21,073 bases of DNA, taken from Candidatus Nanoarchaeia archaeon (lineage in GTDB: Archaea > Nanobdellota > Nanobdellia > SCGC-AAA011-G17 > GW2011-AR18). Made by a program: the position numbers and the translations under genes. The notes under the pieces are model-generated. The model was not told where the DNA came from. It ran no database searches and was given only the letters and a program-made list of their open reading frames with translations. This document shows positions 5,292 to 6,356 of this stretch, in pieces; position 1 is the first letter of the stretch; every line of letters begins with the position of its first letter. Location of the stretch: assembly GCA_041648255.1 (NCBI GenBank), contig JBAZPJ010000006.1:1-21073 (forward strand). Direction: 5' to 3'.

Positions 5292-6236
5292 ATGGATTCT
5301 CTTAAAACACGCTATGGTTCAATTCCTTTCTCCGAGCTTAAAATATTTGATATTCCTGGATATCCTAAAATCCCTTTAAGTAATTATTTTGATAAGCTTG
5401 TTAATCCTCAAATAGATAAGAAAGCTACTAACATAAGAATAGAACTCAAAAACGGCAATCAAATACGAATTTCAACTTTGCAATTACAATCGTTAAATCC
5501 GTCTACACTTAAAACCTTACAAATTCTTAGTTCCCCTCATATTATTACCTATCCAAAATACCTTACACCCAAACTTGCTTATCTTGTCGGCTACCTTTAT
5601 GGTGACGGAGGGTTTAAAGATATTCGAAAAACGTATCTATGTTCAGGTAAATATGAATACAAGATGGTTGTTTCTGATGAGTTTGAATTACAAATTAAAG
5701 ATAGGATACAGGTTCTTTTTAGCGAAATTTTTAATCTTAATGCACCCCTTAGAAGAGAACGTCTCCTTAAAGGAGAGAATTTAGTCTATCTTAATCCTAC
5801 TTGTAAATTGGTTTATATTTTTCTTTCAAGAGTTTTTGACTTTCCAGAAGGAGCTAAAACCACTCTCCACATCCCTCGGCTGATTAAATCCGGCCCGATC
5901 CAAATTCAACAATGGTTTTTAAGAGGATTAATGGATTCAGACGGCGATGTTCGTGCTACGGAAGCTTGGACAGGTAAGTCTACTTCTTCTCCGCGTATAA
6001 AACTTAAACTAGCAGACAGAGTTTTTTTATTGGAAGCACAATCTCTCTTTCGAACAGCTTTTGAAATTAATTTTACCGGCCCCTACACGGATGATTATGG
6101 TGGATGGTATATTCAAATAGGTAAAGGTGGTGTTCTCAAAGCACATTCTTGTTCCCTATTTTATCATCCAGTTAAAGCTTGGAGATTGAATAGATTGAAA
6201 AAAATATTAGAAATGGGGCGAGAGGGACTTCCATGA
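5292..6236 (+). CDS. double-motif LAGLIDADG homing endonuclease, free-standing
   Basis: Two dodecapeptide motifs: LAYLVGYLYGDGGF and WFLRGLMDSDGDV, both keeping the acidic residue. The last 8 codons (6213-6236) are antisense to exon 4 and intron 3 of the tRNA-Phe gene. Flanking sequence looks neither rRNA-like nor intein-like. Confidence 0.85.
   Translation: MDSLKTRYGSIPFSELKIFDIPGYPKIPLSNYFDKLVNPQIDKKATNIRIELKNGNQIRISTLQLQSLNPSTLKTLQILSSPHIITYPKYLTPKLAYLVGYLYGDGGFKDIRKTYLCSGKYEYKMVVSDEFELQIKDRIQVLFSEIFNLNAPLRRERLLKGENLVYLNPTCKLVYIFLSRVFDFPEGAKTTLHIPRLIKSGPIQIQQWFLRGLMDSDGDVRATEAWTGKSTSSPRIKLKLADRVFLLEAQSLFRTAFEINFTGPYTDDYGGWYIQIGKGGVLKAHSCSLFYHPVKAWRLNRLKKILEMGREGLP
6211..6221. repeat. direct repeat AAATGGGGCGA (copy 2), overlapping the tRNA-Phe acceptor 3' strand
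   Basis: Identical to 5209-5219. On the minus strand it is TCGCCCC (positions 66-72) plus A73 plus TTT. Confidence 0.55.
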
Positions 6237-6356
6237 CTTTTGGTCAATTTGGACCCCCGACACCTACGTCTTCAGCGTAGTACTCTCCATAGCCACCTTT
6301 CGGTTCAGGCTGAGCTACCGTTCTGGTTCCTAAAGCCACGGCTTGTAAGAATCCCC
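6214..6356 (-). tRNA. tRNA-Phe(GAA) with three non-canonical introns (exons 6356-6353, 6320-6306, 6288-6248, 6227-6214)
   Basis: Minus strand reads GGGG[32 nt]CGGTAGCTCAGCCTG[17 nt]GGAGAGTACTACGCTGAAGACGTAGGTGTCGGGGGTCCAAA[20 nt]TCCCTCTCGCCCCA. After splicing it is 74 nt.
- Acceptor GGGGCGG/TCGCCCC, with G7-U66.
- D arm GCTC-AGCCTGGGA-GAGT, the conserved Phe-type UAGCUCAG..UGGGAGAG.
- Anticodon arm CTACG-CTGAAGA-CGTAG with U33, GAA at 6271-6273 and G37.
- Variable loop GTGTC.
- T arm GGGGG-TCCAAAT-CCCTC.
- Discriminator A73.

Intron 2 sits in a perfect hBHBh' motif (CTC-AGCC-TGA-ACC-gaaa-GGT-GGCT-ATG-GAG), as does intron 3 (GGGGG-TCCA-AAT-TGAC-caaaa-GTCA-TGGA-AGT-CCCTC). Intron 1 has a relaxed BHB (ATGG/CCAG central helix with one A-G mismatch, lower helix TTCTT/AGGAA). 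TATAAAAA lies at about -30 to -23. A T-run follows the 3' end. This is the only GC-rich island in the region. Confidence 0.8.

What the first reader, a model, noticed from the sequence alone, without database searches (positions are those of the whole stretch)
6214..6356. Hidden tRNA-Phe(GAA) with three introns, all at non-canonical positions
The GC-rich gap between the two LAGLIDADG ORFs gives a near-textbook 74-nt tRNA-Phe only after three segments are removed:
- 32 nt at 6352-6321, between positions 4/5 in the acceptor stem;
- 17 nt at 6305-6289, in the D-loop around 18/19;
- 20 nt at 6247-6228, in the T-loop at 59/60.

There is no intron at the canonical 37/38 site. Introns 2 and 3 each sit in a perfect helix / 3-nt bulge / 4-bp helix / 3-nt bulge / helix motif. 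The predicted cuts restore exactly the conserved Phe D-arm (UAGCUCAGCCUGGGAGAGU) and a 7-nt T-loop. Phe identity elements G20, G34-A35-A36 and A73 are all present.

Multi-intron tRNAs at such positions are known mainly from Thermoproteales and a few ARMAN/DPANN-type genomes. They imply a broad-specificity splicing endonuclease. Standard gene callers would probably miss this gene. It may be the only tRNA-Phe in the genome.
Basis: partly seen in the sequence, partly recalled or inferred. Interest (0 to 1): 0.8.

Follow-up and report, generated by a model that had tools for sequence, protein, structure and literature searches.

The report
Three-intron tRNA-Phe gene in DPANN archaeon

Summary
CONFIRMED.

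Evidence:
- ARAGORN calls the spliced 74-mer tRNA-Phe. All 17 acceptor, anticodon and T-stem pairs form.
- It is 67/74 identical to uninterrupted tRNA-Phe genes of related Woesearchaeota/Nanoarchaeota MAGs.
- A spliced alignment scores 107.8 bits; shuffles give -46 +/- 10.
- All three intron sites recur in other genomes (at least 38, 13 and 22 distinct introns). Splice-motif helices are kept while sequence and length change.
- Intron 1 has a relaxed motif that uses a conserved 5' leader box pairing with the D-arm.
- ARAGORN and Rfam miss the gene. NCBI probably left it unannotated (inferred from locus tags).

Caveats: the T-loop has C55, whereas all 50 scored relatives have U55. No expression data exist, and the rest of the genome was not available.

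This is a new member of a known kind, since disrupted tRNA genes are already reported in DPANN.

Side findings:
- Relatives carry up to six introns; reviews give three as the maximum.
- Two LAGLIDADG families sit beside tRNA-Phe genes across genomes. One tracks the 4/5 intron, the other the 18/19 intron. This suggests, but does not prove, that homing endonucleases are linked to intron spread.

The parts
6389..6405 (-). Probable archaeal promoter: BRE-like CCGAAAG (6405-6399) and TATA-like TTTTATAG (6396-6389)
   Evidence: A similar BRE-like + TATA-like element is upstream of 62/97 related tRNA-Phe genes, against 3% of shuffles. In the window the TATA element starts 30 nt before the leader box; the family mode is 31-32 nt. 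That it acts as a promoter is inferred from general knowledge of archaeal promoters.
6357..6366 (-). 5' leader CUGAGCACAU. The leader box CUGAGC (6366-6361) is complementary to D-arm GCUCAG (nt 10-15). AU (6358-6357) belongs to the central helix of the intron-1 motif.
   Evidence: The box pairs 6/6 with the D-arm in 35/38 distinct genes, against 3% of shuffled leaders. That helix is 98.6% paired across 37 sequences, and almost all changes keep the pair. The promoter spacing shifts by about 11 nt in 4/5-intron genes.
6353..6356 (-). Exon 1: GGGG (tRNA nt 1-4)
   Evidence: Pairs with CCCC (69-72) of exon 4. ARAGORN cloverleaf. The same 4-nt exon is seen in 38 distinct related genes.
6321..6352 (-). 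Intron 1 (32 nt) at 4/5, with a relaxed BHB: central (A)UGG/CCA(G), bulges GG|A and AA|C, 6-bp inner helix UUCUUA/UAGGAA
   Evidence: Homologous introns are found in L006, L010, L012 and 43 metagenome loci. In the inner helix, 6/8 pairs change on both sides and 94.9% of cells are paired. Overall 94.1% are paired, against 27-49% when the partners are slid.
6306..6320 (-). Exon 2: CGGUAGCUCAGCCUG (nt 5-18)
   Evidence: Identical to the corresponding stretch of the intron-less genes in L022, L035 and L041.
6289..6305 (-). Intron 2 (17 nt) at 18/19, strict hBHBh'
   Evidence: There are 13 distinct introns at this site in other genomes, 14-37 nt long. The central helix AGCC/GGCT is present in 12/13, and the inner helices (2-8 bp) all differ in sequence.
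6248..6288 (-). Exon 3: nt 19-59 (rest of the D-arm, anticodon arm with GAA, variable loop, T-stem 5' strand, and T-loop UCCAAA)
   Evidence: The anticodon arm and variable loop are identical to 92 genome stretches from DPANN MAGs. C55 (window base 6252) is the only departure from a column that is invariant in the 50 scored intron-less relatives.
6228..6247 (-). Intron 3 (20 nt) at 59/60, strict hBHBh'
   Evidence: There are 22 genuine distinct introns at this site in other genomes, 15-54 nt long. C55 pairs with G in the central helix TCCA/UGGA.
6214..6227 (-). Exon 4: UCCCUCUCGCCCCA (nt 60-73, discriminator A73). No CCA is encoded.
   Evidence: The closest relatives L098/L120 have the identical 3' exon.
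6198..6213 (-). T-rich trailer (UUUCUAAUAUUUUUUU), a probable transcription stop
   Evidence: Read from the sequence. Its function is inferred.
5292..6236 (+). LAGLI1: 314-aa double-motif LAGLIDADG protein, convergent with the tRNA. Its last 8 codons are antisense to exon 4 and the end of intron 3.
   Evidence: profile matches I-DmoI, E 5e-5; D105 and D217 invariant. Homologues lie next to a tRNA-Phe with a D-loop intron in 7/7 distinct loci. It is absent from the closest relative L098.
6462..7229 (+). LAGLI2: 255-aa double-motif LAGLIDADG protein, divergent from the tRNA 5' end
   Evidence: D56 and E157 invariant; pLDDT 95.6; LAGLIDADG fold. Homologues always lie 5' of tRNA-Phe, in either orientation. 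It is absent from L098.

Best explanation
This is a genuine tRNA-Phe(GAA) gene of a DPANN archaeon (a 'Candidatus Nanoarchaeia' MAG of the Woesearchaeota/Nanoarchaeota group), split into four exons by three short introns of the archaeal bulge-helix-bulge (BHB) type.

Proposed mechanism:
1. Transcription starts from a BRE/TATA promoter, about 10 nt upstream of the mature 5' end. The transcript therefore begins with a leader box, CUGAGC.
2. In the precursor, introns 2 (18/19) and 3 (59/60) fold into canonical hBHBh' motifs.
3. Intron 1 (4/5) folds into a relaxed motif. Its central helix uses leader nt -2/-1 plus G1-G2, and its outer helix is formed by the leader box pairing with D-arm nt 10-15. 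So intron 1 must be removed before the leader is trimmed.
4. The archaeal splicing endonuclease EndA cuts after the second nucleotide of each 3-nt bulge, an RtcB-type ligase joins the exons, the leader and trailer are trimmed, and CCA is added.

Shown here: the exons, the motifs, their conservation and covariation, the promoter-like element and its spacing. Inferred: the enzymes, the order of processing, and that the gene is expressed.
For: - The spliced 74-mer is called tRNA-Phe(GAA) by ARAGORN, with a full cloverleaf. All 17 acceptor, anticodon and T-stem pairs form.
- It is 67/74 identical to the intron-less genes of L022, L035 and L041. Those genes score 63.6 bits on Rfam RF00005.
- The spliced-alignment score is 107.8 bits, against -46 +/- 10 for shuffles.
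- The same three intron sites occur in independent genomes. Site 4/5 has 38 distinct sequences with strong covariation. Site 18/19 has 13 distinct introns. Site 59/60 has 22.
- The closest relative, L098/L120 (aRF1 83% identical), has the same acceptor stem and T-stem. It carries introns 1 and 3 but not 2. Its exons are 70/74 identical (my count from the sequences), while the introns are clearly much more diverged. This indicates purifying selection on the exons.
- The promoter-like element and its spacing are conserved.
- The Phe identity elements G20, G34-A35-A36 and A73 are present (read from the sequence).
- DPANN lineages are reported to carry EndA variants associated with many disrupted tRNA genes (PMC5829648).
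Against: - C55 replaces the otherwise invariant U55: 50/50 relatives have U, and only 1 of 85 other tRNAs in the fetched loci has C55.
- The intron-1 central helix has an A.G mismatch, and the 3' splice site lies in an enlarged loop rather than a clean 3-nt bulge.
- The precursor's folding energy is not unusual (z = -0.75).
- There are no RNA data.
- No EndA gene was seen in the 24.6-kb contig, and the rest of the genome could not be examined, so a second, uninterrupted tRNA-Phe cannot be excluded.
- The covariance-model score of the spliced product could not be computed with the tools available.
Confidence: 0.85

Rival explanations
1. It is a decaying or redundant copy (a pseudogene) of tRNA-Phe. 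It has been invaded by introns and flanked by selfish endonuclease genes, while a normal intron-less tRNA-Phe elsewhere in the genome does the work.
For: - C55 instead of the invariant U55.
- Three G.U pairs in the stems.
- The gene sits between two apparently mobile LAGLIDADG genes, one of which runs into its 3' end.
- One related MAG (Modern_marine.mb.116) appears to have both an intron-less and an interrupted tRNA-Phe on different contigs (L019 and L062).
Against: - Every stem pair is intact.
- The exons are 70/74 identical to L098, while the introns and neighbouring proteins are far more diverged.
- The C55 change is matched by a G in the intron, so the splice motif stays perfectly paired. 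That is not expected in a gene drifting freely.
- The promoter element and leader box are intact.
- Archaeal genomes usually carry one gene per tRNA isoacceptor (stated in the abstract of PMC4307357).
Confidence: 0.1
2. It is a chance resemblance: with three freely chosen deletions, many sequences could be made to look like a tRNA.
For: - BHB-like motifs by a loose definition are common, about 105 per 21-kb strand in simulated sequence.
- The folding energy is not exceptional.
Against: - Shuffled versions allowed the same three free deletions reach at most -15 bits, against 107.8 observed.
- Homologous exons and homologous introns at the same three sites exist in dozens of independent contigs.
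- There is covariation in the intron helices.
Confidence: 0.01
3. It is an assembly artefact: a metagenome mis-assembly inserted unrelated fragments into an ordinary tRNA-Phe gene.
For: The window is a single metagenome contig assembled with a k-mer assembler.
Against: - The inserted segments have homologues at identical positions in many assemblies from other samples and other assemblers.
- They form the expected BHB motifs with the flanking exons.
Confidence: 0.01

Closest known systems
Multiple-intron tRNA genes of Thermoproteales (Sugahara et al. 2008; Fujishima et al. 2010; reviewed in PMC4033280 and PMC4390854)
   Same: Several short BHB-type introns at non-canonical positions within one tRNA gene, including the D-loop, T-loop and acceptor stem. 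Strict and relaxed motifs are mixed. Ordinary tRNA finders miss them.
   Different: The lineage is different (DPANN, AT-rich, probably not a hyperthermophile) and the gene family is different. Intron 1 depends on a conserved leader box that pairs with the D-arm. The reviews give three introns as the maximum; the window sits at that limit and its relatives exceed it.
Disrupted tRNA genes of DPANN archaea linked to EndA variants (ARMAN-2 epsilon2 type, PMC3239211; alpha4 type with the L3 loop, Kaneta et al. 2018, PMC5829648)
   Same: Same superphylum. Kaneta et al. surveyed one Woesearchaeota and one Pacearchaeota MAG. They reported increased tRNA gene disruption and said that incomplete tRNA sets point to unidentified disrupted genes. 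The window gene is such a case.
   Different: In the passages I read, that paper does not describe this tRNA-Phe family, the 4/5 intron with its leader box, or more than three introns. The EndA type of the window organism is unknown.
Archaeal intron- and intein-encoded LAGLIDADG homing endonucleases (I-DmoI, I-Tsp061I, PI-PfuI)
   Same: The flanking ORFs have two LAGLIDADG motifs with invariant acidic residues. Their profiles match these enzymes, and LAGLI2 has the same fold.
   Different: Here the genes are free-standing. They lie beside a tRNA gene, not inside an rRNA intron or an intein. The tRNA introns (14-54 nt at the window's three sites) are far too short to encode them. Nuclease activity has not been tested.
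Collaborative or trans homing by free-standing phage endonucleases next to an intron (T4 mobE with I-TevIII, PMC2790892; cyanophage F-CphI, PMC6083498; my recollection is that its target is the psbA intron-insertion site)
   Same: An endonuclease gene sits just outside a conserved gene, and the intron lies where the enzyme's target would be. This is the same arrangement as LAGLI2 with the 4/5 intron and LAGLI1 with the 18/19 intron.
   Different: Those cases involve self-splicing group I introns in phages. Here the introns are protein-spliced BHB introns in an archaeal chromosome. The link rests only on co-occurrence.

Membership tests
tRNA (tRNA-Phe, anticodon GAA) | Cloverleaf: 7-bp acceptor stem, 4-bp D stem, 5-bp anticodon stem, 5-bp T stem, 7-nt anticodon loop and 7-nt T-loop | tested here: met
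   ARAGORN cloverleaf of the spliced 74-mer. 17/17 acceptor, anticodon and T-stem pairs.
tRNA (tRNA-Phe, anticodon GAA) | Anticodon GAA flanked by U33 and a purine at 37; Phe identity elements G20 and A73 | tested here: met
   The loop is CUGAAGA. G20 and A73 were read from the spliced sequence.
tRNA (tRNA-Phe, anticodon GAA) | Conserved tertiary-interaction nucleotides (U8, A14, G18, G19, U54, U55, C56, A58) | tested here: not met
   All are present except position 55, which is C. All 50 relatives have U there. This is a single-position departure that is compensated within the intron-3 helix. It does not change the classification but is a real anomaly.
tRNA (tRNA-Phe, anticodon GAA) | Covariance-model score above the Rfam/tRNAscan threshold | not testable with these tools
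The unspliced locus gives no hit. Intron-less orthologues that are 67/74 identical score 63.6 bits against a threshold of 29.
tRNA (tRNA-Phe, anticodon GAA) | Orthology with recognised tRNA-Phe genes | tested here: met
   The anticodon arm and variable loop are identical to 92 DPANN stretches, 70 of which ARAGORN calls as intron-less tRNA-Phe.
Archaeal BHB intron (EndA substrate) | Two 3-nt bulges separated by a 4-bp helix and flanked by helices (hBHBh'), with the splice sites after the second bulge nucleotide | tested here: met
   Introns 2 and 3 have 4/4 central pairs, inner helices of 3 and 4 bp and outer helices of 3 and 5 bp. The cut-position rule is from memory (Marck and Grosjean 2003).
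Archaeal BHB intron (EndA substrate) | The same motif for intron 1 (4/5) | tested here: inconclusive
   The motif is relaxed: three invariant central pairs plus an A.G mismatch, a clean 5' bulge GG|A, and a 6-bp inner helix. The 3' site lies in a larger loop closed by a remote helix between the leader and the D-arm. This fits the relaxed class that broad-specificity EndA enzymes cut, but it is not the strict motif.
Archaeal BHB intron (EndA substrate) | The motif is conserved, with compensatory changes, across homologues | tested here: met
   Intron 1. Intron 2. Intron 3.
Archaeal BHB intron (EndA substrate) | Cleavage by the splicing endonuclease and ligation in vivo; a suitable EndA in the same genome | not testable with these tools
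   There are no RNA data. No tRNA-intron-endonuclease domain appears among the window or contig proteins that were scanned or listed.
LAGLIDADG homing endonuclease (flanking ORFs) | Two LAGLIDADG motifs, each ending in a conserved acidic residue | tested here: met
   LAGLI2: D56 and E157 are invariant in 28 sequences. LAGLI1: D105 and D217 are invariant in 12 sequences.
LAGLIDADG homing endonuclease (flanking ORFs) | LAGLIDADG fold | tested here: met
   LAGLI2: the AlphaFold model has pLDDT 95.6. Foldseek matches the TliVMA intein endonuclease domain, PI-PfuI, I-Tsp061I and I-DmoI at E 2e-10 to 1e-6. LAGLI1 has sequence-profile evidence only.
LAGLIDADG homing endonuclease (flanking ORFs) | Site-specific DNA cleavage and homing | not testable with these tools
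   Only indirect signs are available: absence from the closest relative, insertion in both orientations, and a constant location beside tRNA-Phe. The non-nuclease LAGLIDADG relatives WhiA and bI3 maturase also match the fold.

The most novel reading that the evidence does not exclude
The two LAGLIDADG genes flanking this tRNA are free-standing homing endonucleases. Each targets the uninterrupted tRNA-Phe DNA at one site: LAGLI2 around 4/5 and LAGLI1 around 18/19. The BHB intron at that site splits the target and protects the carrier. Endonuclease gene and intron then spread together by co-conversion. This would be a form of 'collaborative homing' in Archaea and a concrete route for the gain of protein-spliced tRNA introns. 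It could also explain why tRNA-Phe in this clade has accumulated up to six introns.

Supporting observations:
- LAGLI1 proper lies next to a tRNA-Phe with a D-loop intron in 7/7 distinct loci, six of them at exactly 18/19. Five of these loci were found starting from the protein.
- LAGLI2 lies 5' of tRNA-Phe in all 5 protein-first samples and in 14 tRNA-first loci. 14 of 15 distinct loci in the neighbour census have a 4/5-type intron.
- In the genome scan, only 4 of 89 genes had each of these introns.
- Both genes are absent from the closest relative.
Probability: 0.4. Interest if true: 0.9.

Novelty: new member of a known kind. Interest (0 to 1): 0.6.

Why it matters
- **Annotation.** This is a concrete, well-supported example of an essential gene that routine annotation misses. 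It helps explain why DPANN genomes appear to lack tRNAs, which in turn affects completeness estimates and inferences about their dependence on hosts.
- **RNA processing.** The family it belongs to pushes the known limit of tRNA gene fragmentation from three to six introns. It also reveals a splice motif that depends on the 5' leader, which fixes the order of processing steps.
- **Intron origin.** How archaeal tRNA introns are gained is still unresolved. The site-specific association with two free-standing LAGLIDADG gene families gives a hypothesis that simple cleavage assays can test.

Tried and rejected
- ARAGORN on the raw window, with and without its intron option, found nothing. It only handles introns in the anticodon loop.
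- Rfam found no tRNA hit at the gathering threshold or at E <= 10. Local hits to the 41-nt exon are too weak.
- A plain BHB motif scan does not discriminate: about 105 motifs per strand occur by chance, and 363 on the minus strand. I dropped it as evidence on its own.
- Precursor folding energy against shuffles is not significant (z = -0.75), as is usual for tRNAs.
- The first weight-matrix script used wrong offsets. A version with flat stem scores lost the window's own T-loop intron and gave nonsense for heavily interrupted relatives. I replaced it with pairing-aware scoring and hand-placed splices checked with ARAGORN.
- The weight matrix slightly preferred the alternative placement GGGA|...|CGG for intron 1. 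I rejected it because it breaks the G4-C69 pair and does not fit the bulge geometry.
- I looked for an alternative splice that would restore U55. None exists in the sequence.
- My first regex for 59/60 introns was too greedy and was redone. Two of its hits (L063, L072) are spurious and were discarded.
- I considered that LAGLI2 might be an ordinary syntenic neighbour. This is unlikely because it occurs in both orientations, is absent from the closest relative, and lies in otherwise different gene neighbourhoods.
- I considered a maturase or WhiA-like regulatory role for the LAGLIDADG proteins. This is not excluded, but it is less likely given the invariant catalytic residues and the presence/absence polymorphism.
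Full report
**Observation.** ARAGORN finds no tRNA in the raw window. Rfam finds nothing at the gathering threshold, and no tRNA hit even at E <= 10 on the 381-nt region. 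After the three inserts are removed, ARAGORN calls a 74-nt tRNA-Phe(GAA) with a complete cloverleaf. The product is 63.5% G+C in a window of 36% G+C.

**Is it more than chance?** BHB motifs alone are weak evidence. With a permissive definition I find about 105 per 21-kb strand in simulated sequence. The exon content is what decides it. I built a weight matrix from 50 intron-less relatives and allowed up to three free deletions. The real locus scores 18, 73.5, 96.1 and 107.8 bits with 0, 1, 2 and 3 introns, while 200 shuffles reach -45.9 +/- 9.7 (max -15.1). A second, pairing-aware alignment could only jump at BHB-compatible sites and knew only the start of the gene. It recovered exactly 4/5 (32 nt), 18/19 (17 nt) and 59/60 (20 nt), with 17/17 acceptor, anticodon and T-stem pairs.

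**Source.** The window matches ENA metagenome contig ERZ27249422 k141_272986, 24.6 kb. Its proteins are archaeal: aRF1, a class I aaRS, DUF7343 and glycosyltransferases. NCBI lists the two ORFs flanking the tRNA as WC595_00795 and WC595_00800 of a 'Candidatus Nanoarchaeia archaeon' MAG. PGAP numbers genes in steps of five (my knowledge), so no gene was annotated between them.

**Comparative evidence.** I scanned one genome per GTDB species for the anticodon-arm and variable-loop core and got 92 stretches, almost all from Woesearchaeota, Nanoarchaeota or Pacearchaeota MAGs.
- 70 are uninterrupted tRNA-Phe genes.
- 19 are interrupted, several at the window's sites.
- A metagenome scan with an intron-1 signature returned 43 more genes.
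- The closest relative, L098/L120 (aRF1 83% identical; same order ORF4192-like, tRNA-Phe, glycosyltransferase, aaRS, aRF1), has the same acceptor stem and T-stem and carries introns 1 and 3 but not 2. Its exons are 70/74 identical to the window (my count from the sequences), while its introns are clearly much more diverged. The exons are therefore under purifying selection.

**Introns 2 and 3.** Both are strict hBHBh' motifs in the window.
- At 18/19 there are 13 distinct introns in different genomes, 14-37 nt long. The central helix AGCC/GGCT is present in 12/13, and the inner helices (2-8 bp) have unrelated sequences.
- At 59/60 there are 22 genuine distinct introns, 15-54 nt long, with 3-4 central pairs and the T-stem as the outer helix.

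**Intron 1.** This is the weakest of the three in the window: central helix (A)UGG/CCA(G) with an A.G mismatch, a clean 5' bulge GG|A, and a 6-bp inner helix. Across 37 distinct homologues:
- The inner helix is 94.9% paired, and 6 of 8 pairs change on both sides.
- The three central pairs are invariant. The fourth is A-U in 15 sequences and unpaired in 21.
- The whole structure is 94.1% paired, against 27-49% when the partners are slid by 1-3 columns.
- A leader box YUGRGY, 2-6 nt upstream of AUGGGG, is complementary to D-arm nt 10-15 in 35/38 genes, against 3% of shuffled leaders. That helix is 98.6% paired, and almost all changes preserve the pair.
- The promoter spacing supports transcription of the box. 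A TATA-like element starts 32 nt (IQR 31-33) before the mature 5' end in genes without a 5' intron. In 4/5-intron genes it starts 43 nt (42-44) before the mature end, which is 31-32 nt before the box (p = 1e-9). In the window the corresponding distances are 40 and 30 nt.

The precursor therefore probably begins at the box. Intron 1 must then be excised before the leader is removed. That last step is an inference.

**The anomaly.** The T-loop is UCCAAAU. All 50 relatives have U55, and only one of 85 other tRNAs in the fetched loci has C55 (L027 tRNA-Asn). In the intron-3 motif, nt 55 pairs with an intron base. That base is A in most genes and G (a U.G wobble) in L079, L104 and L137. In the window the pair is C55-G. 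The change is therefore compensated for splicing but costs a universally conserved T-loop position. I cannot tell whether the tRNA tolerates this.

**Mechanism and rivals.** The best explanation (0.85) is a functional gene whose transcript is cut by EndA at three BHB or relaxed-BHB motifs and re-ligated. The enzymology is inferred from established archaeal tRNA splicing. Kaneta et al. 2018 link DPANN EndA variants with increased tRNA disruption, and say that incomplete DPANN tRNA sets imply unidentified disrupted genes (PMC5829648). The pseudogene rival (0.1) rests on C55 and the selfish neighbours. The chance and mis-assembly rivals are excluded.

**Comparison with what is known.** Multi-intron tRNAs are established in Thermoproteales, and disrupted tRNAs have been reported in DPANN. 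The window gene is therefore a new member of a known kind. Reviews give three introns per tRNA gene as the maximum (PMC4033280, PMC4390854). A search for later reports of four introns found nothing relevant.

**Side finding 1: more than three introns.** Spliced products validated by ARAGORN, most with 17/17 stem pairs, show:
- four introns in L097, L100, L109, L121 and L132;
- five in L104/L125 and L137;
- six in L130/L133 (4/5, 20/21, 27/28, 37/38, 46/47, 59/60), a 264-nt gene seen in two samples.

The 46/47 boundary in L130 has a poor BHB in my placement.

**Side finding 2: the LAGLIDADG neighbours.** Both flanking ORFs are double-motif LAGLIDADG proteins with invariant acidic residues. Their profiles match I-DmoI, PI-PfuI and intein endonuclease domains. 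The LAGLI2 model (pLDDT 95.6) has the LAGLIDADG fold.
- Both are absent from the closest relative, L098.
- An unbiased census of ORFs within 600 nt of tRNA-Phe in 140 loci found only five large recurrent families. Two of them are these.
- LAGLI2 homologues always lie 5' of tRNA-Phe, in either orientation. They are present in 11/31 loci with the 4/5 intron and 0/69 without (p = 6e-7, not corrected for phylogeny).
- All five family members sampled from the protein side lie next to a tRNA-Phe. Three of those genes have the 4/5 intron, one has an acceptor-stem intron at about 7/8, and one has no intron but a diverged D-arm.
- LAGLI1 proper (44-49% identity) lies next to a tRNA-Phe with a D-loop intron in 7/7 distinct loci, six at exactly 18/19. 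Five of these were found from the protein side.
- In the genome scan each of these introns occurs in only 4 of 89 genes.
- I found no paper that links free-standing LAGLIDADG genes to archaeal tRNA genes or BHB introns.

The pattern resembles collaborative homing, which is known for phage group I introns. It is co-occurrence only. Shared ancestry is not controlled for, and nuclease activity is untested.

**Limits.**
- No RNA data.
- No access to the rest of the genome.
- tRNAscan-SE was not available.
- No covariance score could be computed for the spliced sequence.
- The association statistics treat loci as independent.

Noticed in passing
L130 and L133 (Ga0114945_10016873, Ga0137796_10016651); also L104/L125, L137, L097, L100, L109, L121, L132: Related tRNA-Phe genes carry four, five and, in L130/L133, six introns (4/5, 20/21, 27/28, 37/38, 46/47, 59/60; a 264-nt gene for a 74-nt tRNA). 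ARAGORN calls every spliced product tRNA-Phe. Reviews from 2014-2015 give three as the maximum per tRNA gene.
   Followed up: partly
window 5292-6236 (+) and 6462-7229 (+); L010, L047, L103-L154: Two LAGLIDADG endonuclease-like families are specifically found beside tRNA-Phe genes. LAGLI2 lies 5' of the tRNA in either orientation and goes with the 4/5 intron. LAGLI1 goes with a D-loop intron (18/19) in 7/7 distinct loci. Both are missing from the closest relative, L098. More distant LAGLIDADG-like ORFs flank tRNA-Phe in L068, L100, L101 and L109.
   Followed up: partly
window 6357-6366 (-) and upstream 6389-6405: A conserved leader box (CUGAGC) pairs with D-arm nt 10-15. The TATA-like element is 31-32 nt upstream of the box in 4/5-intron genes, and about 32 nt upstream of the mature 5' end in genes without a 5' intron. 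This suggests the uninterrupted genes are transcribed with little or no leader, as reported for Nanoarchaeum equitans (from memory).
   Followed up: partly
window 6252 (tRNA position 55): C replaces the U55 that is invariant in 50 scored relatives. It forms a Watson-Crick pair with a G in the intron-3 central helix. One other tRNA in the fetched loci has C55 (L027 tRNA-Asn, T-loop TCCGAGT).
   Followed up: partly
window 6214-6356; NCBI locus tags WC595_00795 and WC595_00800: The two genes flanking the tRNA have consecutive locus tags in the NCBI MAG record. This implies that the public annotation has no tRNA gene here.
   Followed up: no
L144/L145 2297-2373: This is the one LAGLI2-adjacent tRNA-Phe without any intron. 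Its D-arm is unusually diverged (TAGCTTAATCTGGGAAAGC, against the consensus TAGCTCAGCCTGGGAGAGC). That is what target-site escape from an endonuclease might look like.
   Followed up: no
L019 and L062 (JAHIYL010000199.1 and JAHIYL010000304.1, MAG Modern_marine.mb.116): One MAG holds two different tRNA-Phe genes on separate contigs, one intron-less and one with a D-loop intron at 20/21. It is either a genuine second copy or a mixed bin.
   Followed up: no
whole window, minus strand: My permissive BHB scan found 363 motifs on the minus strand, against 113 on the plus strand and about 105 in simulated sequence. This may reflect strand composition (more G.U pairing) or low-complexity runs. I did not examine it.
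   Followed up: no
window 3346-4179 (+); 12452-12976 (-) and 12966-13538 (-): There is a Bro-N domain protein, a domain common in viruses and mobile elements (67% identical homologue in L066). There is also an adjacent HEPN / nucleotidyltransferase pair typical of toxin-antitoxin modules.
   Followed up: no
L141 2390-2640 (+): A tRNA-Phe next to a distant LAGLI2 homologue seems to have an intron after nt 7 of the acceptor stem (GGGAAGG|36 nt|TA...), plus at least two more introns around the anticodon loop. The exact boundaries were not resolved.
   Followed up: no
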